Below, one piece after another: positions 1 through 51,397 of a stretch of DNA of 51,397 bases. Every line of letters starts with the position of its first letter. Positions within the stretch are counted from its first letter, which is position 1. A program made the translations under genes and the position numbers. Below the pieces are notes generated by a model. That model did not search any database. It was given only the letters and a program-made list of their open reading frames with translations, and was not told where the DNA came from. Location of the stretch: the IMG/VR virus record IMGVR_UViG_3300045988_030125, one strand, 5' to 3'. This stretch comes from a virus.

Positions 1-55
1 TACTGATAAGCTACCAGGGTCACCGCCCTAACCAATAACCAAACAAACAAACAAA
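1..55. repeat. 55-bp terminal identity, left copy (identical to 51343-51397)
   Basis: Direct comparison shows that the first 55 nt equal the last 55 nt. This length matches a common de Bruijn k-mer overlap for a circular contig. Confidence 0.95.
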
Positions 56-96: not shown

Positions 97-225
97 GGGC
101 CTGTCGAACGTAACCGTAGGGGCCAGCTAACTCGTGTTAGCCAGGCTTTCGTGACCCGCCCCTGTCGAACGTACTAAGGGGGCTGTCGCACGCTAACCGA
201 GGCCCTGCCCTGTCGAACGTAACCT
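97..225 (+). repeat. Cluster of direct repeats with core CCTGTCGAACGTA (three exact cores plus one variant)
   Basis: CTGTCGAACGTA starts at 101, 162 and 210. The variant GCTGTCGCACGCTAACC lies at 182-197. A further copy of CTGTCGAAC starts at 51279. Confidence 0.85.
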
Positions 226-234
226 ACCCCGTGA

Positions 235-289
235 TGTGACGCAGAACACACCTTATCAAGTTGACAGCCACTTAGCGCCTAGCTAAGCT
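235..289 (+). promoter_or_regulatory. Promoter P1 with upstream CRP-like box
   Basis: TGTGA-cgcaga-ACACA lies at 235-250. TTGACA is at 261-266, followed by a 17-nt spacer and TAAGCT at 284-289. Confidence 0.6.
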
Positions 290-295
290 TGAGTT

Positions 296-573
296 ATCGG
301 CAAGGGAAACCCGGCAAGGACGCGAAAGCGACCGCCGAGACGGCCCGGGCGAGGACCTTAGTCCGAATGGTCTTTGTGAACTGAATTACACACAGGGGCG
401 AGGCTTGCACCTGCCGAAAAGTTGGCAACTTTTCCATCGCCTGTGTCGGCTAGGATGCGAACACGCTGAAACTTTACGTTCGGTCAGTAAAATAAGCGTG
501 CACACATGCCTAGGGCCGCTAGAATGACTTTGTACTGACAAAGTGGCGAGTTCAATTCTCGCACGGCTCACCA
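296..573 (+). ncRNA. Candidate structured non-coding RNA ending in a tRNA-like T-arm/acceptor/ACCA
   Basis: The region lies downstream of P1 and has no credible ORF. It contains hairpins GGGAAACCC (304-312) and CGCGAAAGCG (321-330), an 8-bp stem 416-423/427-434 and a long-range stem ACACAGG/CCTGTGT (about 389-395/440-446). It ends with T-arm GCGAG-TTCAATT-CTCGC (546-562), then ACGGCTC, A and CCA (563-573). Confidence 0.45.
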
Positions 574-591
574 AGATTCTGAACAACCAAA

Positions 592-647
592 TGTGACGCG
601 GTTCACACGCTGTCAGCTTGACACGGCCCCCAGGGGTCCGATAGACT
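592..647 (+). promoter_or_regulatory. Promoter P2 with perfect CRP-like box
   Basis: TGTGA-cgcggt-TCACA lies at 592-607. TTGACA is at 618-623, followed by an 18-nt spacer and TAGACT at 642-647. Confidence 0.65.
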
Positions 648-686
648 GTAGTCACAAGATCAAACCACACCGAAGGGTTACCTACC

Positions 687-911
687 ATGCTCATGCTGTC
701 CGATCCCACCACCAACCGCCTGCCCGTGCTCCCCCTGCCGTTCCCCGACTACAGCTGCCTTAAGCACTTCTTCTCGCACGTGCCCGGCTTCAGCACCTAT
801 GACGCCGCCAAGTGGGCACAGATCACCGAACGCGCGTGCTACGGCGACAGGGTGGCCCTCGCCCGCCTTGACGCGGCTGGGTTCTCCCTGATGGTCACCA
901 CGCGGCTCTGA
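687..911 (+). CDS. hypothetical early protein (74 aa), paralog of 2219-2452
   Basis: The ORF is in the track. GAAGGG lies 9 nt upstream of the ATG. The C-terminal half aligns by eye with the 2219-2452 product. Confidence 0.7.
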   Translation: MLMLSDPTTNRLPVLPLPFPDYSCLKHFFSHVPGFSTYDAAKWAQITERACYGDRVALARLDAAGFSLMVTTRL

Positions 912-919
912 CCCCCCTC

Positions 920-946
920 GCCCGGCCCCCTCACCCGGGGCCGGGC
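920..946 (+). terminator. GC-rich hairpin after the first early gene (no U-tract)
   Basis: GCCCGGCCCC (920-929) pairs with GGGGCCGGGC (937-946) around a 7-nt loop. Confidence 0.5.
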
Positions 947-974
947 ACCCTCCCTCCACACAACCAAGGAAGCA

Positions 975-1247
975 TTGTGTACAACCCGAACTTGCCCCCT
1001 TATCCGCGGCCTCAAGGGCGACTTTGAGGTCATTATCGACACGGGCGAGGTGCTTAACGTGACCAGCAACCCCCGGCTTGCTTGCTACTTGGCGCGCTCG
1101 CTTGACCTGCCTATGCCCCGCGCTGACTGCCTTGTCGAGTTGGTTCACAGCGCCTGTCGTGGCAGCGTGCGTGTCGTCGAACTACTAGCACGGATGGACT
1201 GGCAAATTATTCAGCTTGACGCCGATACCTTGCCGTTCACGGTGTGA
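975..1247 (+). CDS. hypothetical protein (90 aa, TTG start)
   Basis: The ORF is in the track, with SD AAGGAAG at 966-972. Confidence 0.6.
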   Translation: MCTTRTCPLIRGLKGDFEVIIDTGEVLNVTSNPRLACYLARSLDLPMPRADCLVELVHSACRGSVRVVELLARMDWQIIQLDADTLPFTV

Positions 1248-1298
1248 TCCACATCACAACCTAACAAGTTGACAACTACCTAGCACCGTTGCTAGGCT
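1243..1298 (+). promoter_or_regulatory. Promoter P3 with perfect CRP-like box
   Basis: TGTGA-tccaca-TCACA lies at 1243-1258. TTGACA is at 1269-1274, followed by an 18-nt spacer and TAGGCT at 1293-1298. Confidence 0.65.
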
Positions 1299-1335
1299 GA
1301 AAGCACAAACCAAACCACACAGAAAGTGAAACACC

Positions 1336-1509
1336 ATGGCACTCCAATACTGGAATGACTGCTTGCAAGCCGCGCGCGACTTTGCCGGTGATTCCGCTGG
1401 CGACTTCGTCATTGAGGCACTGGCATCTGAGCTTTTCGACTGGTGCCCGAATCAGACACCTACGTTGAGCGAGAGTACACAGACGCCGAGATTCAAGCGT
1501 GCGACGTGA
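1336..1509 (+). CDS. hypothetical 57-aa ORF, possibly the N-terminal part of a frameshifted 1336-1805 product
   Basis: I translated this by hand; it is below the track cutoff. The leader AGAAAGTGAAACACC precedes the ATG strongly. The N-terminal 35 aa look protein-like, but the tail looks off-frame. Confidence 0.55.
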   Translation: MALQYWNDCLQAARDFAGDSAGDFVIEALASELFDWCPNQTPTLSESTQTPRFKRAT

Positions 1510-1805
1510 GCACCTGGCAAGATACGTGCGAGCCTACCGAAGATGGTACCCTGCTGTATGAACGCTGGTTCCAGTCCCCGCTGGGACCGGTTCACGTGGG
1601 AGCGTGGGAGAACACCGACGGGCGCGTGTCGCTCACGCTTAGCACGGTGCGGGACGGCGGTTATGACATGTGGGAGCCTACCTCCAAGACCATCGCCGAC
1701 AGCGACAAGCCCTCCACGTGGGGCGAGTTTGACCGGGCCTACGGTTCTCGCAAAGCTTGGGAGTCCGATCTGGCTACTATCGCCGATACGATCCGCGAGT
1801 CTTGA
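1443..1805 (+). CDS. hypothetical protein (120 aa from a GTG lacking an SD)
   Basis: The ORF is in the track and its composition is protein-like. The frame opens at 1431 and has no RBS of its own. Confidence 0.6.
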   Translation: MPESDTYVEREYTDAEIQACDVSTWQDTCEPTEDGTLLYERWFQSPLGPVHVGAWENTDGRVSLTLSTVRDGGYDMWEPTSKTIADSDKPSTWGEFDRAYGSRKAWESDLATIADTIRES

Positions 1806-1817
1806 CACAACTCAACA

Positions 1818-1867
1818 TCCCCGTATCGATGGTGATATAAAGCCCGGTTCAACCCCGGGACGGGGAA
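1818..1867 (+). ncRNA. tRNA-like minihelix B (acceptor stem plus T-arm, about 50 nt)
   Basis: TCCCCGT (1818-1824) pairs with ACGGGGA (1860-1866). The T-arm is CCCGG-TTCAACC-CCGGG (1843-1859). A small stem carries the loop GATGGT. A hairpin follows at 1871-1890. Confidence 0.55.
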
Positions 1868-1919
1868 CGATGCCCCTCAAAACGAGGGCACAAACCAACA
1901 AACCGAAGGGTTAATTATC

Positions 1920-2183
1920 ATGGCACACACCTACAAGACCGATCCCGACTGGGTTAAGGAAGCACGCGGTGAAGCGTGGCACCCCTCCCAGTTCGCCCGC
2001 TACGGTAGCGGGTACACCCGCCACACGCGGGACCTGAGCAAGCGTATTCGCGCCAGGGAGCGTAGGGAGATGGACCGCATCATGCGTGACCTGGAAGCGT
2101 GGGAGGGCTACTACCCGACGGGTAACAGCGTGATTAGGGAGTTCGATACCGAGACCAACGCTCACGCTTGGATGGACTACTAG
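1920..2183 (+). CDS. hypothetical protein (87 aa)
   Basis: The ORF is in the track, preceded by a CA-rich leader with GAAGGG. Confidence 0.7.
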   Translation: MAHTYKTDPDWVKEARGEAWHPSQFARYGSGYTRHTRDLSKRIRARERREMDRIMRDLEAWEGYYPTGNSVIREFDTETNAHAWMDY

Positions 2184-2218
2184 GCCAACAGCCCGTCCCC
2201 ACACAGAAAGCCACAATT

Positions 2219-2452
2219 ATGTCCTACCGCACGTGTACAATAACAGACCATGTTCTGTACAATTTCGAGACGTTTCCCATCTATAACGGTGTAGTTGACC
2301 ATAAGTCGCTTTGCCGTTGGTTTGGGAGCATCCCCGGCTATGACGTGTTTAAGGCCGCGAAAATGGCGACTGCGACACAGCTTGTGCTTTTGGGAGACGC
2401 AAAACAAATGCGCGTGCTCACACAAGCTGGGTTTGACCTGACATTCAACTAA
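2219..2452 (+). CDS. hypothetical protein (77 aa), paralog of 687-911
   Basis: I moved the track ORF start to ATG 2219, which follows CACAGAAAG. The product resembles the 687-911 product by eye. Confidence 0.7.
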   Translation: MSYRTCTITDHVLYNFETFPIYNGVVDHKSLCRWFGSIPGYDVFKAAKMATATQLVLLGDAKQMRVLTQAGFDLTFN

Positions 2453-2483
2453 TCAACAACACAGAAAGACAAAGACAAAGACA

Positions 2484-2870
2484 ATGGGTATTCTTGACAA
2501 TATCAGCAGCGCCGCGTATGACATTATGGCGGGCCGTGTTGGCGATGGGTTCCTGCCTGTCGCTAAGAATTTCAACATCGCTGCGAATCACAACCACCCG
2601 ATTCGCAACAGCCGATTTGACGTTTATTCCTACACAACGCGCGTTGCAGTAGTGAACAAGAATGAGAATGGGGACTGGGACACTTTCGTACACCGTGATG
2701 CGTTCCATCATTCGACAACTACAAGCCGACACGTGCGCCAGTTCCTGTCGGCAATGGCTGGCCGTGTTGACTGGGACGCGCTTTACAAGGCGTGCAACAA
2801 AGCTTGTAAAGATGAAACTATTAACGGTAATGGTAACCCATTCGTCAATGTGAGCCAGTTCACGTACTAA
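2484..2870 (+). CDS. hypothetical protein (128 aa)
   Basis: The ORF is in the track, preceded by the leader CACAGAAAGACAAAG. Confidence 0.75.
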   Translation: MGILDNISSAAYDIMAGRVGDGFLPVAKNFNIAANHNHPIRNSRFDVYSYTTRVAVVNKNENGDWDTFVHRDAFHHSTTTSRHVRQFLSAMAGRVDWDALYKACNKACKDETINGNGNPFVNVSQFTY

Positions 2871-2903
2871 CAGCTTGACAACAACCAGCCAACCAGATAC
2901 TAT
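2849..2903 (+). promoter_or_regulatory. Promoter P4 with CRP-like box
   Basis: TGTGA-gccagt-TCACG lies at 2849-2864. TTGACA is at 2875-2880, followed by a 17-nt spacer and TACTAT at 2898-2903. Confidence 0.6.
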
Positions 2904-4603: not shown

Positions 4604-4984
4604 ATGTGGGAAGAATTGCTGAGCGTCATTACTGACCGTTATTACCTGCTAGAATCTATGCAGGAAAACGTGGCTGGTTACATTGATCCTGACAAGGGCT
4701 GGGACCTGACACGTGTTAACCCTTGGTTTACCGAGCATGGCTATGAGTTTGTGGGTCTGCTTGACCTGTTCTCTGAAAACGAGGCAAGCGGTGTCTACGT
4801 GAACGTGGATGGTTACGTATGGCGTTGTCGCACTAATGCCGCTGACAATAGCATCTATTGGTACTGGGAGTCCAATAACGAGGGCGTTACCTTGGATGAA
4901 CTGCGCTTCCTGCATGGGTACGTGCACCAATTCATCTGGGACCAAGACGAACAAACGTGTAACGTAGTTCACATGGCAGAATGA
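4604..4984 (+). CDS. hypothetical protein (126 aa)
   Basis: The ORF is in the track, with SD GGAGAG. Confidence 0.75.
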   Translation: MWEELLSVITDRYYLLESMQENVAGYIDPDKGWDLTRVNPWFTEHGYEFVGLLDLFSENEASGVYVNVDGYVWRCRTNAADNSIYWYWESNNEGVTLDELRFLHGYVHQFIWDQDEQTCNVVHMAE

Positions 4985-5041
4985 CCAACAACCTGATAGA
5001 CTAGACACAACAAACCAACCAAGCGAAAGCGAGAAACAAAA

Positions 5042-12274: not shown

Positions 12275-13045
12275 ATGGGAAAGTTTGATTCATTCCTGGA
12301 GGGAATTGATATCGAAGTGTCTGATCCCCGAACCACCACACCTAAGCTGAAGGTCCTACTCTATGGACCTTCTGGCACTGGCAAGACCTCCCTTGCATCC
12401 TCGGCCTCTAAGGTTGAGGAGCTTGGACCTGTCCTCTATGTTGACTTGGAGCGAGGCACTGCGCCCGCTGCCAAGTTCGGTGATCTGGATAACATGCTCA
12501 TTGTCCAGCCTGCAACGTACAAAGAGTTCGCAGACCTCCTTGTTAAGATCAGTGGCGCAAAGGATAAGCCCTTCAAGACTGTCGTCATCGACACCGTTGA
12601 CCGCTTGCAGGAACTTATCAAGCTGCACTTTGCGGCGGTCAATCCAAAGGATTCATTCGCAATGTGGGCGGCGGCGTATGACAAGGTATTGGACCTTGTT
12701 AATACGATTGCCTTCGACATGGGCTTGAACATCATCACGATCACACACGAATCCCGCGAGATCGTGGAGACAGAACGACTCTCTCAAATTGCCCCTGACT
12801 TCGAGGGCAAGAAGAGCTTTAAGAAGCTCCCGGCAATCTTCGACCTGATTGGTCGAATGACCTGGGAGGATGTGGGAGAAGACGGGGAAGAAAAACTCAT
12901 CACTGTTCTTACAGTCAAGTCCCCGTCGAGTATTCTCACTAAGACCAGGTTCGACAACATGCCCGCAATGGTTGGCAACCCGTCGTTCGATAAGATCATG
13001 GGCTGGGTGCATGAACACTACGACATCAAGGAGAAGGATGACTGA
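12275..13045 (+). CDS. AAA/RecA-like ATPase
   Basis: Walker A GPSGTGKT and Walker B VVIDTVD are present. The SD AAAGGAGAAAC is strong. Confidence 0.85.
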   Translation: MGKFDSFLEGIDIEVSDPRTTTPKLKVLLYGPSGTGKTSLASSASKVEELGPVLYVDLERGTAPAAKFGDLDNMLIVQPATYKEFADLLVKISGAKDKPFKTVVIDTVDRLQELIKLHFAAVNPKDSFAMWAAAYDKVLDLVNTIAFDMGLNIITITHESREIVETERLSQIAPDFEGKKSFKKLPAIFDLIGRMTWEDVGEDGEEKLITVLTVKSPSSILTKTRFDNMPAMVGNPSFDKIMGWVHEHYDIKEKDD

Positions 13046-13235
13046 GTACCTGTCGATCAAGGACGTCTCTGAGATGACTGGGGTTAATCGGACTACCATC
13101 CTGTACCGTCTCCGAGCAGACAACAAGGCCTTCCCGGAGCCAGACTGTATTATTCGACATGGGCGAATCAACACCTACGGCTGGCTCCCTAAGACCATCA
13201 ACAATTACATTGAACTCAACAAGAAGGAGAACTGA
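13038..13235 (+). CDS. helix-turn-helix DNA-binding protein (MerR/excisionase-like, 65 aa)
   Basis: This uses the in-frame ATG of track ORF 12870-13235. YLSIKDVSEMTGVNRTTILYRL is a typical HTH. An SD AAGGAGAAGG precedes the ATG. Confidence 0.75.
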   Translation: MTEYLSIKDVSEMTGVNRTTILYRLRADNKAFPEPDCIIRHGRINTYGWLPKTINNYIELNKKEN

Positions 13236-13237
13236 TC

Positions 13238-13705
13238 ATGATTAACTTTGACGAGCTTATGACACTTGACGTTGCGGAGTCCATGAGCTTTGACCCCCTG
13301 CCCAAGGGACAGTACAAGGTGGCTGTCGATGCCTGTGAGCTGGGAGAGTCCAAGAATGGCAAGGCCATGTACACCGTGGACTTTGTTGTTACCGAGGGCG
13401 ACCACGCGGCACGTCAGATTCGCTACTGGCTGGTGCTTCAGACGAAGAAGGGTCTCCACTGGGACCTGCCCTCGTTCTGCAATGCATCTGGTAACGCCTG
13501 GCCTGAAGAGCCAACCGCTCGTACTGGTGAGTACTATTACCAGGTCGAACGAGACATCGTTGGTAAGACTGCGACGATCACTGTCGATGTCGAAGATAGT
13601 GAATACAATGGGCAGGTCACCAAGCGTAACAACATCAAGAAGGTTGAGTGGGACGAGGCCAAGAAGAAGTCTAAGAAGAAGAAGGCTTCTCGGATCGAAC
13701 TCTGA
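13238..13705 (+). CDS. DUF669-like phage protein (possible ssDNA-binding)
   Basis: The ORF is in the track, with SD AAGGAGAA. It has a lysine-rich acidic tail. The family assignment comes from memory of similar sequences. Confidence 0.6.
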   Translation: MINFDELMTLDVAESMSFDPLPKGQYKVAVDACELGESKNGKAMYTVDFVVTEGDHAARQIRYWLVLQTKKGLHWDLPSFCNASGNAWPEEPTARTGEYYYQVERDIVGKTATITVDVEDSEYNGQVTKRNNIKKVEWDEAKKKSKKKKASRIEL

Positions 13706-13713
13706 TCCCTTCG

Positions 13714-13756
13714 GGCGGGCCGTATCTTGACAGTGAGGTACGGCCCGCCGTACTAT
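13714..13756 (+). promoter_or_regulatory. Promoter P5 embedded in an 11-bp hairpin
   Basis: GGCGGGCCGTA (13714-13724) pairs with TACGGCCCGCC (13739-13749). TTGACA (13727-13732) sits in the loop. TACTAT lies at 13751-13756. Confidence 0.55.
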
Positions 13757-13777
13757 ATACAAGCAGAAAGGAGAGCG

Positions 13778-16093: not shown

Positions 16094-18147
16094 AGATTCT
16101 AACTACTGACTGCGACGAGCTGCCTGTTCTTGCGCAGATTCTACTGAAGCGGGCATACGTGGTATCTGGCCTTCCAGAGGACACGCACGTAGAAATCACT
16201 GACGATGTGAACGATGTGGATATCAAGATCACCCTCGGCACTGTGAAAGGTTACAAGGGTGGTGCGTACAAGACGCTTTCACCTAAGCAGATTGTTACCA
16301 ATCCGCAGTCTGTTCTGTTCCTTGCTCAGGCGTTGCAGTATGGTTACCTTGGTCCTGTTGATCTTAATCTGGAACTCGGCAAGGACTGGGTTATCTGGGA
16401 GGGTGAGGACATCACCTTCAAGCCAGGCACGGTGATTGCACTCGACATCGAGTCCGCTGGTGACATCGACAACGACACGTTCGCGGCTGGGCGCATCCTG
16501 TCGATTGCCCTGTGGAATGGCAAGTTTGGTGTGGTTATCCCCGAGGAGCTTGCTGAGACCGACAAAGCAGCAGAGACCATTAAGAGGCTGTGCGACACCT
16601 GCACGGTTGTCTGCCACAACGGGACCTTCGATATGCCGTACCTGTCGAAGCGCCTGGGTATCAACGTGTATCACCATGAGGACACGCTGCTCATGCACTT
16701 CGTGCTCGACAACCTGGCCGGTGAGCATGGCCTGAAGCCTCTCGCTCGTCGCTGGTTGCGTGCAGAGGATTGGGACTCGGATGCAAAGTCTTACCTGAAG
16801 GGCGGGGCGTACTTCGAAAACATCCCCAAGGAAAAGCTCTATGAGTACAACTTGGCAGACGTGGTATGGACCTTCAAGCTGTACGAATACTTCCTTCCGA
16901 TGCTCAAGAACAGCAGAAAGTACGACTACTACCGCTACCGTATGCAGGTCACGAAGGTTCTCAACGATGTGCAGATGAACGGTGTTGCAGTGTCGCTCAA
17001 TGCTCTCGATGAACTGGAAGAGAAGTATAAGCGTCAGTGTGACGAGAACCTTGTTGTCTTGAGGCAGCACGCGGGTGAGGACTTCAACCCACAGTCTCCT
17101 AAGCAGATCAAGGACTACTTCAAGTCTAAGGGTGTGTCGTCCCCGTCGTTCGACTCCGACCACCTGAAGAAGCTGCGACGCGAAGGCAAGGAGACTGAGT
17201 TTATCGACGCTCTGCTTGCCTACCGCTACGCAGCTAAGGTGATTGGCTCATTCATTGCTAACGTGCGCCGTAAGGTCGGTGAGGATGGACGTATCCATCC
17301 GTACTACCTGCCTCACGGTGCTAAGACGGGTCGCTTGTCGGCCAAGGGGCCAGCGATTCAGACGATGGGACGCGACAGCGGTATCAAGCGTGCCCTTGTC
17401 GCTGCACCTGGTTGCAAGATCATCTCTTGCGACTACTCCCAGGCTGAGCTACGTACTGTCGCTGAGCTCGCGGACGACGAGGCTATGATTGCCGCGTTCC
17501 AGCCGGGTGCACCGGACTTTTTTGACGATCTGATGACAAAGATCTGGCCAGAAGAGTTCCCGACAATCGAAGCGTACGAGGCTTTCAAGCACGAACAGCC
17601 AAAGACCGCGAAGAACCGACGCGCACTGGTCAAGAGCGTGGTGTACGGTCTCAACTACAATAGAGGTGTACCAGCTATTGCGACAGCGCTTGAACAGCCT
17701 CTTGAGGCCGCACAGCATGTGGTCGATCAATACCTCGGCTCCTACCCGGGACTTCGAGACTGGCAGGCACGGGTTAAGCACAGTGTAGGACGTAAGGAAG
17801 AGGACCACGAACGTAAAACCAAGTTCGGCCTCACCTTCAATCCCCTTTTCGTGTCGGACAGCAACTACAATTCGACACAGAATGAAGCACTCGCCTTTGT
17901 TCCACAATCGACAGCCAATGACATCTGTCTGAACGCAGCAATCAAGATCAATGAACAAGTTGGTCAATACGGAGCTAAGCTGATTGGTCTTGTCCATGAC
18001 GCTACCTATGTCGAGTGCCCCGAAGAAACCATTGAAGAGTGCTCCAAGATGATGGAATACGAAATGGCTAAGGCGGCGACGATTGTGTTCAATCGTGTGC
18101 CTTTTGCTGCTGAAGCAGAGGTCGGTAACAACTGGGAAGAGGTGTAA
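16090..18147 (+). CDS. family-A DNA polymerase (Pol I-like, with 3'-5' exonuclease)
   Basis: Exonuclease motifs LDIES and HNGTFDMPYL are present. Polymerase motifs DYSQAELR, KSVVYGLNY and LVHDA are present. Confidence 0.93.
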   Translation: MKILTTDCDELPVLAQILLKRAYVVSGLPEDTHVEITDDVNDVDIKITLGTVKGYKGGAYKTLSPKQIVTNPQSVLFLAQALQYGYLGPVDLNLELGKDWVIWEGEDITFKPGTVIALDIESAGDIDNDTFAAGRILSIALWNGKFGVVIPEELAETDKAAETIKRLCDTCTVVCHNGTFDMPYLSKRLGINVYHHEDTLLMHFVLDNLAGEHGLKPLARRWLRAEDWDSDAKSYLKGGAYFENIPKEKLYEYNLADVVWTFKLYEYFLPMLKNSRKYDYYRYRMQVTKVLNDVQMNGVAVSLNALDELEEKYKRQCDENLVVLRQHAGEDFNPQSPKQIKDYFKSKGVSSPSFDSDHLKKLRREGKETEFIDALLAYRYAAKVIGSFIANVRRKVGEDGRIHPYYLPHGAKTGRLSAKGPAIQTMGRDSGIKRALVAAPGCKIISCDYSQAELRTVAELADDEAMIAAFQPGAPDFFDDLMTKIWPEEFPTIEAYEAFKHEQPKTAKNRRALVKSVVYGLNYNRGVPAIATALEQPLEAAQHVVDQYLGSYPGLRDWQARVKHSVGRKEEDHERKTKFGLTFNPLFVSDSNYNSTQNEALAFVPQSTANDICLNAAIKINEQVGQYGAKLIGLVHDATYVECPEETIEECSKMMEYEMAKAATIVFNRVPFAAEAEVGNNWEEV

Positions 18148-18440
18148 TGAACGCATCCGATTATGAAGAAGCAGCTTGCCTTAATGCTCCTGTCGAGCTG
18201 TTCTACGATGTGAAGCTCTACGCAGACGTTGCACGAGTATTCTGCGAGAACTGCCCCATCAAAGAACAGTGTCTTCAAGATTGCCTGCAAGCCGAAGAAA
18301 CACCTGTTGACGGTAAGAAGTTCCGTTCAGGTGTCTTCGGTGGGCTTTCACCGAGCGCAAGGAATGTTTACGCTGGCACAGCATACGATGTACTAAGTGA
18401 TGATTGGGAGGAAGAATATGCAAACAGTAATAGCAATTGA
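18147..18440 (+). CDS. whiB: WhiB-family Fe-S transcription factor
   Basis: The Cys pattern is C-x21-C-x2-C-x5-C (AACL...FCENCPIKEQC), followed by GVFGGL. Confidence 0.8.
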   Translation: MNASDYEEAACLNAPVELFYDVKLYADVARVFCENCPIKEQCLQDCLQAEETPVDGKKFRSGVFGGLSPSARNVYAGTAYDVLSDDWEEEYANSNSN

Positions 18441-41475: not shown

Positions 41476-42822
41476 TCAGCGAGTCTTGCTGTATCGACCG
41501 ACACACCAGGCCACAGTCACGGTGGCTACACCGAACAGCAGCGACAGAATCCCGATCACAGCGGCCTCAGAGGCAGCACCAGTCTTGGCCAGCTTGGCCT
41601 TCGGGGCCTCAATCGTTGGCGCAGGCTTCGGGGCCGGGGCCGGTGCAGGCTTAGTCGGTGCAGGGATAGGCTCGATCTTGCAGGGCGTCCGGTCCTTGTC
41701 TCGGTCAGGGTGGATCGTGCAAGGGGTCTGGGTCGGCGTGGGCGTCGGCTCATCCGAAGGCGCAGGCGTCGGCGTCGGCTCGGACGGCTTGGAAGGCTCA
41801 GGGGCCGGGGTCGAGGTCGGCTCAGTAGAAGGGGCCGGTGCAGGCGTAGACGGCTCAGGTTCCGGCGTAGGGGCAGGAGTCGGCTTCGGGTCCTCAGACG
41901 GCGTAGGTTCCGGCGCGGGCGTCGGCTTCACAGAGCCGTCACCGTCCGTGCCTCCGTTAGAACGGACGGTCGCAGTAGCTTCCAGTTTGAGACCATTCAC
42001 CTCAGCGTGGTTGGTAACTGAGGTCTGACCCTCGGGCACCTTCATCTGCTCGGGTGGGTACGTGGCGCAAGTCTTAGACCCTTCAGGCGCGGTGAACTTG
42101 ATCGTGTTCGCATCCACCTGATCGGCGGTAACAATCTCGGTCGTGGCCGGGTCCCAGGTTGGACCCTTAGCGCACTTCACGTACGTGCTCAGCCGAGTGT
42201 CGAAGTCCTTAACGGTGTACTCGACACCGCCCTCGGCAATAAACTTGATGCCCCATCCAACGGTTCCGTTGGAATTGGTCCAACCAAACTTGATGTTGGA
42301 AGGCTCTGCGTACTCAAAGTGGGCCGGACTATCACAGTCGCTCGTGCAAGACCCTGTGCCTTCAGCATCGCCCCAGATGAGCTTCTTGACAACCTCACCA
42401 TTGAGGGTGATCGTACCCTCGTTAGTGCCGACAGCGGCGTCCTGAAGCCTGGCTCGCGCCCACCACGAACCGCTGACGTTCTCCTTATCCTTATAAGACT
42501 CAGGCACCTCGGTCACCTTGCAGGTCAGCGTCGCCTGATCGGCGTTGCACTCACCGACGACAGTGCCGTCATTAAGAGCGAATGGAAAACTAGCGTTCCA
42601 CTTGAAGCCACCATCCTTAGACGCGACGGTGAAAGACTGTCCGACAGCCAGTCGCTCAACGGTCCAGATTCCACCCACATTGACCTCGCTAGAGGTCTGC
42701 CGAGACGAGGACGTTGCCTTGGTGACCTCGGCCTTGATCTCAGGGGTGGTGTCGGCGGCATAGGCTGCTGCTGGGGCAATCATCAGTAGTGCGACACCGG
42801 CTGTCGCAAGAAAACGCTTCAT
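41476..42822 (-). CDS. secreted, sortase-anchored (LAKTG) cell-wall surface protein with a Pro/Thr-rich stalk
   Basis: The signal peptide is MKRFLATAGVALLMIAPAAAYA. The PT-rich linker spans about 41640-41940. The LAKTG motif lies at 41578-41592, followed by a hydrophobic helix and an RYSKTR tail. An SD GAAAGGA precedes ATG 42822. Confidence 0.88.
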   Translation of the reverse strand: MKRFLATAGVALLMIAPAAAYAADTTPEIKAEVTKATSSSRQTSSEVNVGGIWTVERLAVGQSFTVASKDGGFKWNASFPFALNDGTVVGECNADQATLTCKVTEVPESYKDKENVSGSWWARARLQDAAVGTNEGTITLNGEVVKKLIWGDAEGTGSCTSDCDSPAHFEYAEPSNIKFGWTNSNGTVGWGIKFIAEGGVEYTVKDFDTRLSTYVKCAKGPTWDPATTEIVTADQVDANTIKFTAPEGSKTCATYPPEQMKVPEGQTSVTNHAEVNGLKLEATATVRSNGGTDGDGSVKPTPAPEPTPSEDPKPTPAPTPEPEPSTPAPAPSTEPTSTPAPEPSKPSEPTPTPAPSDEPTPTPTQTPCTIHPDRDKDRTPCKIEPIPAPTKPAPAPAPKPAPTIEAPKAKLAKTGAASEAAVIGILSLLFGVATVTVAWCVGRYSKTR

Positions 42823-42863
42823 TGTTAGTTGTCCTTTCGTAGTTGTCTGGGCTGACAACATTT

Positions 42864-42919
42864 AGTGTAGCTGACAGACCGAGTAGTTTACGATAGATAA
42901 TCACGTGACACTGCTCACA
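42864..42919 (-). promoter_or_regulatory. Promoter of the LPXTG gene: CRP-like box, weak -35, good -10
   Basis: Read on the minus strand, TGTGA-gcagtg-TCACG lies at 42919-42904. A 7-nt gap follows, then CGTAAA (42892-42887), a 17-nt spacer and TACACT (42869-42864). Confidence 0.5.
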
Positions 42920-45000: not shown

Positions 45001-45056
45001 AGTATAGGCCCGCTCTTTCTGAACTGTCAACCCTATACCACGTGACGTGTGTCACT
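45001..45056 (-). promoter_or_regulatory. Promoter of the tRNA operon with CRP-like box
   Basis: Read on the minus strand, AGTGA-cacacg-TCACG lies at 45056-45041. TTGACA is at 45030-45025, followed by an 18-nt spacer and TATACT at 45006-45001. Confidence 0.65.
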
Positions 45057-46186: not shown

Positions 46187-46242
46187 ATACTAATGCTCTC
46201 TACCGTCGCCTGTCAACAACTACCCACGTGACGTGTACCACA
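46187..46242 (-). promoter_or_regulatory. Promoter with CRP-like box
   Basis: Read on the minus strand, TGTGG-tacacg-TCACG lies at 46242-46227. TTGACA is at 46216-46211, followed by an 18-nt spacer and TAGTAT at 46192-46187. Confidence 0.6.
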
Positions 46243-49938: not shown

Positions 49939-50244
49939 TCACTGCATCTCCTGAAAATCGTAGTTACTGAGGTAGACCAGCTCGGTGTCTTTGGCGTTTG
50001 TGAGTTCTTCAAAAAGCTCCTCGCACGTCAGGATAGTTCCGTTAGAGCTGACCCACCTGTCACCTTTAATCGACAGGTAGTTAGGGCCTGTAGTGGCAAT
50101 GACGCCTCCAGGCTTAGACGACAGGTCCATTGGGCTGGTGATAGCAAACGTTTGGCCGTCATACTCCTGCCGCAAGTAGAACATCGGCGGGGTCAGCATT
50201 GGTTCGACAGCGGGTGTGCTGCACTTAGGGCAATTGCAAGTCAT
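49939..50244 (-). CDS. hypothetical protein (101 aa) with an N-terminal CxCxxC
   Basis: I moved the track ORF start to ATG 50244, which follows AGAGGAGAAAC. It is the first gene of the minus-strand arm. Confidence 0.75.
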   Translation of the reverse strand: MTCNCPKCSTPAVEPMLTPPMFYLRQEYDGQTFAITSPMDLSSKPGGVIATTGPNYLSIKGDRWVSSNGTILTCEELFEELTNAKDTELVYLSNYDFQEMQ

Positions 50245-50278: not shown

Positions 50279-50333
50279 AGCATAGAAGGGTAGATGGTTA
50301 AAGTCAACAAGATAATTTGTGATCTGACCCACT
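50279..50333 (-). promoter_or_regulatory. Right-arm promoter with a half-conserved CRP-like box
   Basis: Read on the minus strand, AGTGG-gtcaga-TCACA lies at 50333-50318. TTGACT is at 50307-50302, followed by a 17-nt spacer and TATGCT at 50284-50279. Confidence 0.5.
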
Positions 50334-50770: not shown

Positions 50771-50993
50771 AAGTAAATTACATACCTAGCAATGTAATTA
50801 CCCGCTTAATCTGTATGTAATACCCAAAGATAAGAATAATGTAAAGTACATATAAACAAGAAGGTTTCTATGATAATGTAATATAGGGGTATAGTATGTA
50901 TATATGTATTATATGTATGTAAATGTAAAAGCGTCAGATCATAGACGACAGTAATATACCCCCGGGGGGTATCCTTATTGAGAATGATTCTCA
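50771..50993. repeat. AT-rich island with ATGTAA(T/A) iterons and two palindromes
   Basis: ATGTAA(T/A) occurs at 50792, 50815, 50839, 50876, 50917 and 50923, with three further ATGTAT copies. ATACCCCCGGGGGGTAT lies at 50956-50972. GAGAATgATTCTC lies at 50981-50993. Confidence 0.8.
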
Positions 50994-51298
50994 TTATCAG
51001 TTCTCACCCTCCCTCAATTGTCCTGTCATTTACCCTATGCTATCTCTAAGCCCCTAACACCCCCTCAGAGCTACCCACATACCACTAACCCCCTAAAAGT
51101 CTCTCTACGCCCCTTCCAGACCCCTCCACGGCCATGCCAGCACCAACCACCTCCCTCCCAACCCACAACTCCCTCGCACACACACGCGCGTATAGCACAC
51201 CAAACCCAACCATGCAACTTAAACCACATCTTGAGATGTCAAGACAACACCAACCGTCTTGGCACCTAATTAGTGCCCCTGTCGAACACCCTCCAAAG

Positions 51299-51354
51299 TG
51301 TTACCCATTTCACACCATAAAAACCTTGACTTTCTCTCTCGATACTGATAAGCT
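51299..51354 (+). promoter_or_regulatory. Promoter P0 with CRP-like box; its -10 falls inside the 55-bp terminal identity
   Basis: TGTTA-cccatt-TCACA lies at 51299-51314. TTGACT is at 51326-51331, followed by a 17-nt spacer and TAAGCT at 51349-51354 (equivalent to positions 7-12). Confidence 0.5.
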
Positions 51355-51397
51355 ACCAGGGTCACCGCCCTAACCAATAACCAAACAAACAAACAAA
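51343..51397. repeat. 55-bp terminal identity, right copy
   Basis: It is identical to positions 1-55. Confidence 0.95.

What the first reader, a model, noticed from the sequence alone, without database searches (positions are those of the whole stretch)
235..2903. CRP/GlxR-type palindrome TGTGA-N6-TCACA at a fixed distance upstream of every early promoter
Each + strand promoter with a near-consensus TTGACA has a 16-bp CRP-family-type box. The TGTGA half-site starts 26 nt before the -35 hexamer (27 nt at P0).
- P1: TGTGAcgcagaACACA (235)
- P2: TGTGAcgcggtTCACA (592, perfect)
- P3: TGTGAtccacaTCACA (1243, perfect)
- P4: TGTGAgccagtTCACG (2849)
- P0: TGTTAcccattTCACA (51299)

TGTGA-N6-TCACA is the known consensus of E. 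coli CRP, mycobacterial Crp and corynebacterial GlxR.

No CRP-like protein (cNMP domain plus HTH) is evident in this genome. The simplest reading is that the phage wires its early transcription to a host cAMP/CRP-family regulator. A phage factor with the same specificity is the alternative.

The box centre lies near -54, which is neither the classical class I position nor the class II position.
Basis: partly seen in the sequence, partly recalled or inferred. Interest (0 to 1): 0.7.

Follow-up and report, generated by a model that had tools for sequence, protein, structure and literature searches.

The report
CRP-type boxes on actinophage promoters
Nine promoters of this phage carry a palindrome matching the binding site of the bacterial cAMP regulator CRP at a fixed distance upstream, and unrelated phages of the same bacterial phylum do the same, so these viruses probably tie their transcription to a host metabolic sensor.

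Summary
All five + strand boxes sit at the stated coordinates. Each lies 10 nt (P0: 11 nt) before a TTGAC(A/T) -35.

- **More sites in the window.** Four more modules lie on the - strand, so nine promoters on both divergent arms carry the box. Eight pass a strict count, against 0.09 expected from shuffles.
- **Family conservation.** Eighty-nine related IMG/VR loci hold 190 unique modules, 171 at the same offset. GTG-N8-CAC is nearly invariant. Spacer and linker vary. Half-site changes are never compensated, which indicates a protein site and not a hairpin.
- **Phage proteins.** No CRP-like protein was found, only WhiB and a weak HTH_17 match. WhiB, an LAKTG sorting signal and TANNNT -10 elements mark an actinophage. 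The host is unidentified.
- **Position.** The inferred box centre is -53.5/-54.5. M. tuberculosis CRP sites cluster at -60 to -40, and one CRP-activated gene has its site at -54.5.
- **Other lineages.** An exact-pattern scan found the same module, repeated, in several other WhiB-encoding phage lineages. Their only detected shared protein with this phage is WhiB.

Best reading (about 0.6): a host CRP/GlxR-type dimer binds upstream of the sigma-A -35 and activates. Binding, sign of regulation and host are not shown.

The parts
51299..51354 (+). P0 module. Box TGTTACCCATTTCACA (51299-51314), 11-nt linker, -35 TTGACT (51326-51331), 17-nt spacer, -10 TAAGCT (51349-51354; also 7-12 because of the 55-bp end overlap).
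   Evidence: P0-type orthologues in relatives keep the 27-nt offset and the weak left half-site.
235..289 (+). P1 module. Box TGTGACGCAGAACACA (235-250), 10-nt linker, -35 TTGACA (261-266), 17-nt spacer, -10 TAAGCT (284-289). It drives an ORF-less unit that ends in a tRNA-like element.
   Evidence: An orthologue is kept even in the divergent 59% GC lineage (L051:1034).
592..647 (+). P2 module. Perfect box TGTGACGCGGTTCACA (592-607), 10-nt linker, -35 TTGACA (618-623), 18-nt spacer, -10 TAGACT (642-647).
1243..1298 (+). P3 module. Perfect box TGTGATCCACATCACA (1243-1258), 10-nt linker, -35 TTGACA (1269-1274), 18-nt spacer, -10 TAGGCT (1293-1298).
2849..2903 (+). P4 module. Box TGTGAGCCAGTTCACG (2849-2864, inside the 3' end of the preceding ORF), 10-nt linker, -35 TTGACA (2875-2880), 17-nt spacer, -10 TACTAT (2898-2903).
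50279..50333 (-). L1 module, the first leftward promoter. Box AGTGGGTCAGATCACA (50333-50318), 10-nt linker, -35 TTGACT (50307-50302), 17-nt spacer, -10 TATGCT (50284-50279). It lies upstream of the 101-aa gene 49939-50244.
   Evidence: Orthologues occur in many relatives.
46187..46242 (-). L2 module. Box TGTGGTACACGTCACG (46242-46227), 10-nt linker, -35 TTGACA (46216-46211), 18-nt spacer, -10 TAGTAT (46192-46187).
45001..45056 (-). L3 module. Box AGTGACACACGTCACG (45056-45041), 10-nt linker, -35 TTGACA (45030-45025), 18-nt spacer, -10 TATACT (45006-45001). It lies directly upstream of the tRNA-Leu/Pro/Gln cluster (44931-44469).
42864..42919 (-). L4 module. Box TGTGAGCAGTGTCACG (42919-42904), 10-nt linker, weak -35 TCGTAA (42893-42888; TTGTAA, TTGTCA or TTGTGA in relatives), 18-nt spacer, -10 TACACT (42869-42864). 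It lies upstream of the LAKTG-anchored surface protein gene.
4958..5002 (+). Possible tenth site. Box-like TGTAACGTAGTTCACA (4958-4973) lies 23 nt before a conserved TAGACT (4997-5002), giving a centre near -43.5. It sits in the C-terminal codons of the upstream gene, so its conservation may be due to coding.
13041..13235 (+). Gene for a 65-aa HTH_17-like protein. It is the only candidate phage sequence-specific DNA-binding protein and is relevant to the rival explanation.
   Evidence: (E 0.004, below the Pfam cut-off).
18147..18440 (+). WhiB-like gene. It marks an actinobacterial host and is the only protein family shared with the other module-bearing phage lineages.

Best explanation
Each box is a binding site for a dimeric CRP-family regulator of the actinobacterial host, of the Crp/GlxR type.

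**Geometry.**
- The dimer would sit upstream of the sigma-A -35 hexamer. Its centre is 21 bp, two helical turns, from the centre of the -35.
- That places it at about -53.5/-54.5 relative to the inferred start.

**Proposed mechanism.**
- From there the dimer would contact RNA polymerase and raise initiation at nearly all of the phage's sigma-A promoters, on both divergent arms.
- Phage transcription would then start without any phage protein. Its rate would follow the host's cAMP/CRP state.

**Shown.** The motif, its enrichment, its fixed phase, its conservation with spacer turnover, its protein-site character, the absence of a phage CRP-like gene, and its recurrence in other actinophage lineages.

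**Inferred.** The identity of the binding protein, the direction of regulation (activation), the transcription start sites and the host.
For: 1. **Consensus match.** The boxes match TGTGA-N6-TCACA exactly. Among 108 unique boxes the near-invariant bases are G2, T3, G4 and C13, A14, C15. G2 and G4 are the bases contacted by the CRP recognition helix (PMC10187061).
2. **Protein site, not hairpin.** When one half-site deviates, the other is almost never compensated: 3/69, 5/64 and 0/30.
3. **Fixed phase.** Of 190 unique modules in 89 related loci plus the window, 171 have offset 26, 15 have offset 27 and 4 have offset 25. Linker and spacer sequences differ between them.
4. **Enrichment.** Eight modules are observed in the window, against about 0.09 expected.
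5. **First promoters.** The modules head both divergent arms, so they must work before any phage protein is made.
6. **A weak core promoter also carries the box.** L4 has a weak -35 and a good box.
7. **No phage CRP-like protein.** No cNMP or HTH_Crp domain was found in the phage ORFs scanned.
8. **Position fits an actinobacterial CRP.** M. tuberculosis CRP sites cluster at -60 to -40. CRP-activated genes have sites at -44.5, -54.5, -57.5 and -59.5 (PMC4117774).
9. **Recurrence elsewhere.**
   - The same box-N10-TTGACA module occurs two to four times in 34 of the first 120 IMG/VR loci returned by an exact scan.
   - Twelve of those 34 carry WhiB.
   - No other protein is shared with the window phage within the stored segments.
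   - Boxes that did not trigger retrieval prefer linkers of 10/11 nt. In a low-GC group they prefer 10, 20/21 and 31 nt, which suggests helical phasing.
Against: - The host is unidentified, so the presence and specificity of its CRP rest on general knowledge of Actinobacteria.
- Eight of the nine core promoters have a consensus or near-consensus -35 and a TANNNT -10, so they have no obvious need for an activator.
- The closest cultured relatives have similar promoters but no boxes: Arthrobacter phages Amigo and Molivia, and Curtobacterium phage Nonagon.
- The 59% GC sub-lineage keeps only one module, so the box is dispensable.
- The centre of the box shows an asymmetric C8/A9 preference. A symmetric dimer does not predict this, although shared descent of promoter copies could explain it.
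- Transcription start sites are inferred, not mapped.
- There is no binding evidence of any kind.
Confidence: 0.6

Rival explanations
1. A phage-encoded dimeric DNA-binding protein binds the boxes. The candidates are the 65-aa HTH_17-like protein at 13041-13235 or an unrecognised small early protein. It would feed back on all sigma-A promoters, either shutting off or boosting transcription after the first round. This would resemble phi29 p4, which binds upstream of early promoters.
For: - Most small early ORFs have no recognisable family, so a hidden regulator cannot be excluded.
- An HTH_17-like protein exists and is conserved in 60 family loci.
- Near-consensus core promoters would run without an activator, which suits later negative control.
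- The closest box-less relatives, Amigo and Molivia, presumably infect hosts that also have CRP. That inference comes from general knowledge and argues against a universal host-driven need for the box.
Against: - No CRP-like or other confident HTH domain was found. The HTH_17 match is below the Pfam cut-off.
- That protein is only 54-95% identical among phages that share the same box consensus.
- A 33% homologue is retained in the box-poor L049 and L050.
- It has no homologue in the stored segments of the other module-bearing lineages.
- The box sequence is identical across phage lineages that share no detected protein except WhiB. Amigo and Molivia encode WhiB without boxes.
- Phage operators usually overlap the core promoter and diverge between lineages.
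Confidence: 0.2
2. A different host factor recognises the same half-sites. It could be a second CRP/FNR-family paralogue that does not respond to cAMP, or an unrelated dimeric regulator.
For: - Everything that supports a host dimer applies here as well.
- From general knowledge, several actinobacteria carry more than one CRP/FNR-family protein, and CRP-type paralogues share the TGTGA specificity.
Against: - The match to the canonical Crp/GlxR consensus and spacing is exact.
- Crp/GlxR is the abundant, phylum-wide member. GlxR and Rv3676 share 178 identical residues (PMC10187061).
- No evidence points to another factor.
Confidence: 0.12
3. The palindrome has no protein partner. It could be a hairpin or cruciform, or an RNA-level signal at the 3' end of the upstream transcript. 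Alternatively it could be inherited passively with duplicated promoter cassettes.
For: - Some promoter copies within one genome are near-identical downstream of the -35, which indicates cassette duplication or conversion (L071).
- Each box also lies at the end of the preceding transcription unit.
Against: - Half-site changes are not compensated.
- The stem would be only 5 bp, with no U tract (one search lists no terminator there).
- The 6-nt spacer and 10-nt linker sequences have diverged completely between the nine promoters, while their lengths and the GTG/CAC cores stayed fixed.
- The module recurs in lineages with no detected DNA or protein similarity other than WhiB.
Confidence: 0.03

Closest known systems
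M. tuberculosis Crp (Rv3676) and C. glutamicum GlxR regulon sites
   Same: - Same 16-bp palindrome TGTGA-N6-TCACA with a GTG/CAC core.
- Sites upstream of sigma-A promoters. M. tuberculosis sites cluster at -60 to -40, and activation occurs from -54.5 and -57.5 (PMC4117774).
- The host phylum is the one indicated by WhiB, LAKTG and TANNNT -10 elements.
   Different: - Those sites are in chromosomal genes at varied distances.
- Here the site is part of a stereotyped cassette, box-N10-TTGACA-N17/18-TANNNT, repeated nine times in a phage genome and across phage lineages.
- Binding is not shown here.
E. coli class I CRP-dependent promoters (lac type, -61.5, -72.5 and so on)
   Same: - An activator site upstream of the -35.
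- Strict dependence on helical phase. The centre-to-centre distance to the -35 is 21 bp. In other lineages the linkers step by about 10-11 bp.
   Different: - The centre is -53.5/-54.5. From general knowledge, E. coli CRP does not use this position.
- The core promoters are near-consensus, not weak.
NtcA boxes (GTA-N8-TAC) in cyanophage promoters
   Same: A host global regulator of the CRP/FNR family whose sites are carried by phage genomes, which couples phage genes to host physiology.
   Different: - A different family member, motif and host phylum.
- Usually at the -41.5 class II position.
- Not a fixed cassette on nearly all promoters.
cAMP-CRP control of phage T1 pir, dam and recE promoters
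   Same: Host CRP acts directly on several promoters of one phage and links phage development to host metabolic state (PMC6737242).
   Different: - In T1 the effect is repression, in an E. coli phage.
- No conserved box-to-promoter architecture is described there.
phi29 p4 sites and mycobacteriophage stoperators (phage-encoded regulators acting at many promoters)
   Same: Many copies of one short site distributed over the promoters of a phage genome. This comparison is from general knowledge.
   Different: - Those sites are bound by a phage protein that is easy to identify, and their specificity is lineage-specific.
- Here no such protein is evident, and the motif equals a host regulator's consensus across lineages that share no detected protein except WhiB.

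Membership tests
CRP/GlxR-type (CRP-FNR family) binding site | A 16-bp inverted repeat TGTGA-N6-TCACA in which the contacted bases G2 and G4 (and their symmetry mates) are the most conserved. | tested here: met
   -.
- Among 108 unique boxes: G2 103, T3 104, G4 93, C13 106, A14 107, C15 105.
- Positions 1, 5, 12 and 16 are weaker.
- Contact bases are taken from PMC10187061.
CRP/GlxR-type (CRP-FNR family) binding site | Two independently constrained half-sites, as expected for a dimeric protein and not for a base-paired structure. | tested here: met
   Deviating boxes stay complementary in only 3/69 (pair 1-16), 5/64 (pair 5-12) and 0/30 (core pairs).
CRP/GlxR-type (CRP-FNR family) binding site | A position relative to the start site from which the family is known to act. 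| tested here: inconclusive
   - The centre is -53.5/-54.5, assuming the start lies 6-7 nt after the -10.
- This is not an E. coli class I or class II position.
- It lies inside the -60 to -40 cluster of M. tuberculosis CRP sites, and a CRP-activated gene has its site at -54.5.
- Start sites are not mapped.
CRP/GlxR-type (CRP-FNR family) binding site | A cognate CRP-type protein present in the cell, from host or phage. | not testable with these tools
   - The phage has none by Pfam or PHROGs.
- The host is not identified.
CRP/GlxR-type (CRP-FNR family) binding site | Demonstrated binding and cAMP dependence. | not testable with these tools
   This needs EMSA or footprinting.
Class I-type activator-dependent promoter | The activator site is kept in a fixed helical phase with the core promoter. 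| tested here: met
   - Offset 26 occurs in 171 of 190 unique modules.
- Other lineages use linkers of 10/11 nt. A low-GC group uses 10, 20/21 and 31 nt. The counts in that group are inflated by related contigs.
Class I-type activator-dependent promoter | A sub-optimal core promoter that needs the activator. | tested here: not met
   Eight of nine promoters have TTGACA or TTGACT with a TANNNT -10. Only L4 has a weak -35: TCGTAA in the window, and TTGTAA, TTGTCA or TTGTGA in relatives.
Phage repressor-operator system (stoperators, phi29 p4 sites, CI/Cro operators) | A phage-encoded sequence-specific DNA-binding protein that is co-conserved with the sites. | tested here: inconclusive
   - The only candidates are a sub-threshold HTH_17 protein and WhiB.
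- The HTH is 54-95% identical across box-bearing relatives.
- It is kept at 33% identity in box-poor L049 and L050.
- It is absent from the stored segments of the other module-bearing lineages.
Phage repressor-operator system (stoperators, phi29 p4 sites, CI/Cro operators) | The operator overlaps the core promoter or start site, and its specificity is lineage-specific. | tested here: not met
   - The box lies wholly upstream of the -35.
- The same consensus occurs in lineages whose only detected shared protein is WhiB.
UP element | An A/T-rich, non-palindromic tract at -40 to -60. | tested here: not met
   The boxes are G+C-containing palindromes, and the linkers are not A/T tracts.
Intrinsic terminator or RNA hairpin | A G+C-rich stem with compensatory changes and a U tract. 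| tested here: not met
   One search lists no terminator at the boxes. One search shows no compensation.

The most novel reading that the evidence does not exclude
A CRP box placed in helical phase upstream of a consensus sigma-A promoter is a portable promoter cassette. Several actinophage lineages from different habitats, which share no detected protein with one another's groups beyond small families and WhiB, have adopted it. It hardwires essentially all host-polymerase-dependent phage transcription to the host's cAMP-CRP state. The cassette would then act as a general infection-time sensor of host physiology, deciding how fast or whether the lytic programme starts.
Probability: 0.35. Interest if true: 0.8.

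Novelty: new variant of a known kind. Interest (0 to 1): 0.66.

Why it matters
**A testable rule for actinophage transcription.** If the boxes are host CRP/GlxR sites, phage gene expression in these actinophages is read off the host's cAMP signal through a fixed promoter cassette.
- This links phage productivity to nutrient state, both in human-associated actinobacteria and in whatever environments the other lineages come from.
- It explains how such phages achieve strong transcription without their own polymerase or sigma factor.

**A natural data set for CRP geometry.** The family and the other lineages together supply hundreds of sequence-diverse sites. All have the geometry 10/11-nt linker, centre near -54. 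They could define how actinobacterial CRP contacts RNA polymerase, at a position that E. coli CRP does not use.

**Practical use.** The cassette is a ready-made, probably cAMP-responsive strong promoter for Corynebacterium and Mycobacterium engineering.

Tried and rejected
**Close relatives among cultured phages.**
- A megablast of the first 6 kb against 50,697 phage records found nothing.
- The best protein relatives are Arthrobacter phages at 35-42% identity.

**Host identification failed.**
- The single genome-contig scan, with the endolysin, returned only an unrelated Bacillota MAG.
- The LAKTG protein has only phage homologues.
- The one NCBI record carrying it (GCA_900091265.1) appears to be a metagenome. 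The matching Logan assembly of run ERR1474570 has contig numbers above 69,000, and no paper mentions the accession.
- Rothia is only a guess. It rests on relatedness to Arthrobacter phages and on the 52.6% and 59% GC of the two sub-lineages.

**Search for a phage CRP-like or HTH protein.**
- Pfam and PHROGs scans covered most ORFs on the coding strands. Primase, polymerase, helicase, tail, tape-measure and some head genes were scanned only in part or not at all by Pfam. The scans gave WhiB, a weak ANT/KilAC match and a sub-threshold HTH_17 match, and nothing else relevant.
- My first gene calls missed several ORFs. This was corrected.

**Rfam.** It reports no family at the boxes or in the ORF-less P1 unit.

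**Cultured phages checked for the module.** Amigo, Molivia and Nonagon have none.

**Naming the other module-bearing lineages.**
- Megablast and tblastn against cultured phages gave no close relative.
- Their shared small 'MTRKDY' protein has no homologue in the window.
- The stored segments of the low-GC group show no CRP-like gene.

**Readings rejected.**
- The hairpin reading was rejected on the absence of compensatory changes.
- The box-like site at 4958 was not counted as a module, because it lies in conserved coding sequence.

**Literature.** Searches for a described CRP/GlxR-box architecture in phages found only the T1 case.

Full report
**What the window is.** The 51,397-base window is a complete phage genome of 51,342 bp, with its first 55 bases repeated at the end.
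- Genes on the + strand run from the left end to about 18.9 kb. They comprise small early genes, a helicase, a primase, DNA polymerase I and WhiB.
- Genes on the - strand run from about 50.3 kb down to 19 kb. They comprise small genes, three tRNAs, a cell-wall-anchored surface protein, dUTPase, lysis genes, terminase, portal, capsid and tail genes.
- No cultured phage is close. The first 6 kb has no near DNA match. The best protein relatives are Arthrobacter phages of the Amigo group at 35-42% identity.
- Four features indicate an actinobacterial host: a WhiB gene, an LAKTG sorting signal in the surface protein (read), AGAAAGG-type ribosome-binding sites, and TANNNT -10 hexamers.
- I could not name the host.

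**Check of the observation.**
- P1-P4 have exactly 10 nt between the box and TTGACA. P0 has 11 nt before TTGACT.
- Each -35 is followed by 17 or 18 nt and a TANNNT hexamer.
- Boxes with at most one mismatch occur 9 times, against 2.56 expected. None of 100 shuffles reached 9.
- I defined the composite module as a box with at most 2 mismatches, 26-27 nt before TTGAC[AT]. It occurs 8 times, against a mean of about 0.09 in 300 dinucleotide-preserving shuffles.

- Four further modules with the same 10-nt linker lie on the - strand:
  - 50333, the first leftward promoter;
  - 46242;
  - 45056, directly upstream of the tRNA cluster;
  - 42919, upstream of the surface-protein gene, with a weak -35.
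- A conserved sigma-A-like promoter at 13727 has no box. It reads TTGACA-18-TACTAT and is embedded in a hairpin.

The box therefore marks nine promoters on both divergent arms. It does not mark 'every + strand early promoter'.

**Conservation in relatives.** Two protein-anchored scans of IMG/VR returned 89 related loci, with 71-96% helicase identity.
- Promoter-centred view: among 193 TTGAC[AT]-N16-19-TANNNT sites near the helicase, mismatch counts to the box at offset 26 are bimodal. 107 sites have at most 2 mismatches and 78 have 5 or more. The best box lies at offset 26 in 107 cases, at 27 in 6 and at 25 in 1.
- Core-only selection: requiring only the GTG/CAC core gives 190 unique modules (259 instances). 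Of these, 171 are at offset 26, 15 at 27 and 4 at 25. They contain 108 different box sequences.
- The near-invariant bases are G2, T3, G4 and C13, A14, C15. The outer positions 1, 5, 12 and 16 are weaker. The six central bases and the ten linker bases differ freely between promoter positions.
- The conserved positions include the two guanines that the CRP recognition helix contacts (PMC10187061).
- When one half-site departs from consensus, the other is almost never changed to restore complementarity: 3/69, 5/64 and 0/30. The element therefore behaves as two protein-contacted half-sites, not as a hairpin.
- The weak-(-35) promoter of the surface-protein gene keeps a good box in relatives, TGTGAGTAGAGTCAC[A/G]-N10-TTGTAA.
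- A divergent 59% GC sub-lineage (L049-L051) has lost the TTGACA promoters. It retains only one module, the P1 orthologue in L051.
- The closest cultured relatives have TTGACA-N17-TAAGCT promoters but no boxes. These are Arthrobacter phages Amigo and Molivia. Curtobacterium phage Nonagon also has none.

**Who could bind it.**
- No phage ORF has a cyclic-nucleotide-binding or Crp-type HTH domain. The small early proteins have no recognisable family.
- After correcting some missed gene calls, the only candidate phage DNA-binding proteins are three:
  - WhiB;
  - a weak ANT/KilAC match;
  - a 65-aa HTH_17-like protein at 13041-13235, which scores below the Pfam threshold.
- The HTH_17-like protein lies 10 kb into the rightward operon, so it cannot act at the first round of transcription.
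- It is only 54-95% identical among relatives that share an identical box consensus.
- It persists as a 33% homologue in the box-poor L049 and L050.
- It has no homologue in the stored segments of the other module-bearing phages described below.

**Position.**
- With the start site 6-7 nt after the -10, the box centre is at -53.5 (17-nt spacer) or -54.5 (18-nt spacer). P0 lies one base further upstream.
- The centre lies 21 bp, two helical turns, from the centre of the -35 hexamer (arithmetic).
- This is neither the E. coli class I nor class II position.
- ChIP-seq of M. tuberculosis CRP combined with mapped start sites shows sites clustering from -60 to -40. Genes that fall in the crp mutant have sites at -44.5, -54.5 (Rv1592c), -57.5 (whiB1) and -59.5 (PMC4117774).
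- The geometry is therefore ordinary for an actinobacterial CRP.

**The module is not private to this phage family.** None of the 120 loci belongs to the window's family.
- Thirty-four of the 120 loci hold two to four modules, usually on one strand within a few kb (L156, L145, L110, L114). From the shuffle rate I estimate that two or three such loci would be expected by chance.
- The 34 loci fall into several groups with their own box variants and -10 styles.
- Twelve of them encode WhiB-like proteins.
- Within the stored segments, no other protein is shared with the window phage.
- A low-GC group (37-39% GC) carries 8-11 perfect palindromes per 10 kb. It has the actinophage-type Pfam families GP88 and DUF932.
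- I then looked only at boxes that did not trigger retrieval:
  - In the mid-GC loci, the distance to the next TTGAC[AT] is 10 or 11 nt in 27 of 50 cases.
  - In the low-GC loci, the distances peak at 10, 20/21 and 31 nt.
  - That stepping by about one helical turn is what an RNA-polymerase-contacting activator predicts. However, those counts are inflated by closely related contigs.

**Explanation.** The simplest account of all this is a conserved host protein.
- The boxes keep an exact CRP consensus, with conservation strongest at the contact bases.
- The half-sites are independent.
- The helical phase with the -35 is fixed.
- The boxes sit on the first-fired promoters of both arms.
- No phage CRP-like gene was found.
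- The same module was adopted by phage lineages that share no detected protein other than WhiB.

In Actinobacteria the obvious candidate is Crp/GlxR. It is highly conserved across the phylum: GlxR and Rv3676 share 178 identical residues (PMC10187061).

I take the direction of regulation to be activation. The site lies wholly upstream of the -35 on the polymerase face. The M. tuberculosis gene with a site at -54.5 is CRP-activated. One phage promoter with a poor -35 carries a good box. This step is inference.

A host CRP acting on several promoters of one phage has a precedent in T1, where it represses (PMC6737242). From memory, NtcA boxes in cyanophages are a further parallel.

**Rivals.**
- A phage-encoded regulator cannot be excluded, because most early ORFs are orphans and the core promoters look self-sufficient. 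I put it near 0.2.
- A different host factor with the same specificity is at about 0.1.
- A protein-free role (hairpin or passive cassette inheritance) is close to excluded.

**Novelty.** CRP sites upstream of promoters are textbook, and host regulators acting on phage promoters are known. I found no description of the following:
- a stereotyped CRP-box/sigma-A cassette on nearly all host-polymerase promoters of a phage;
- a site centred near -54;
- recurrence across several uncultured actinophage lineages.

I rate it a new variant of a known kind, with interest 0.66. The main weaknesses are the unknown host and the complete lack of binding or start-site data.

Noticed in passing
window 513-575 (+): A tRNA-like RNA element lies at the 3' end of the ORF-less P1 transcription unit (about 296-590), just before the P2 box.
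- It has a 6-bp acceptor-like stem, a 6-bp hairpin, a canonical T arm (GCGAG-UUCAAUU-CUCGC) and a 3' ACCA.
- It has no D arm and no anticodon loop.
- ARAGORN and Rfam do not call it.
- Relatives, including the 59% GC lineage, keep the fold. Seven of the 16 predicted pairs show compensatory changes.
   Followed up: partly
window 100-114, 161-174, 209-223 and 51278-51289 (+): Four copies of CCTGTCGAAC(GTAAC) lie in the non-coding control region, between P0 and P1 and just upstream of the P0 box. A degenerate copy lies at 181-198. They could be iterons or another regulator's sites.
   Followed up: no
window 50800-50985: An A+T-rich island with short TATGTA/TGTAA repeats ends in the palindrome CCCCCGGGGGG. 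It sits in the gap between the divergent promoter sets. A C-rich tract follows at 51000-51200. It may be a replication origin.
   Followed up: no
window 13690-13760 (+): A conserved sigma-A-like promoter, TTGACA-18-TACTAT, lies upstream of the primase gene and lacks a box. Its -35 sits in the loop of an 11-bp G+C-rich inverted repeat (GGGCGGGCCGTA...TACGGCCCGCC). It may be a combined terminator and promoter, or a separately regulated middle promoter.
   Followed up: no
window 41476-42861 (-): A lytic-looking phage encodes a secreted surface protein with a Pro/Thr-rich stalk and an LAKTG sorting signal. The gene has its own box promoter with a weak -35. A search gave 1,719 homologues with E at most 1e-5. 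All 120 listed hits look like phage sequences. Relatives carry a GH16 gene next to it.
   Followed up: partly
window 375-390 (+); L071:7825; L051:1166: A box-like TGTGAACTGAATTACA lies inside the P1 transcribed region with no promoter downstream. It is conserved in relatives, including the divergent lineage.
   Followed up: no
window 4958-5002 (+): A box-like TGTAACGTAGTTCACA lies 23 nt before a conserved TAGACT, giving a centre near -43.5, which is a class II-like position. It also encodes the conserved C-terminus TC[ED]VV[HN]MAE of the upstream gene, so it is ambiguous.
   Followed up: partly
L155, L159, L160, L162, L163, L169, L175, L209: A group of low-GC (37-39%) viral contigs carries 8-11 perfect TGTGA-N6-TCACA palindromes per 10 kb, mostly intergenic. 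The linkers to TTGAC[AT] are 10, 20/21 and 31 nt. These contigs have GP88, DUF932 and ThyX genes, and a small 'MTRKDY' protein shared with WhiB-encoding contigs.
   Followed up: partly
L001, within the DNA polymerase I gene (roughly 12-14.5 kb of the locus): The polymerase gene of this close relative appears interrupted by an intein-like insert...YNCIAEGSPVLTDRGLVPIEDVQ..., with a homing-endonuclease-like middle part. I saw this only by eye, in sequence printed by accident.
   Followed up: no
window 1-55 = 51343-51397: The first 55 bases are repeated exactly at the end. This indicates a circular assembly or a short terminal repeat. The P0 -10 hexamer lies inside the repeat.
   Followed up: yes
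L071:6995 and L071:5654 (- strand of the locus): Two promoters in one relative have different boxes and different linkers. However, the 30 nt after the -35 (all that was printed) are identical. This suggests promoter-cassette duplication or gene conversion within a genome.
   Followed up: no
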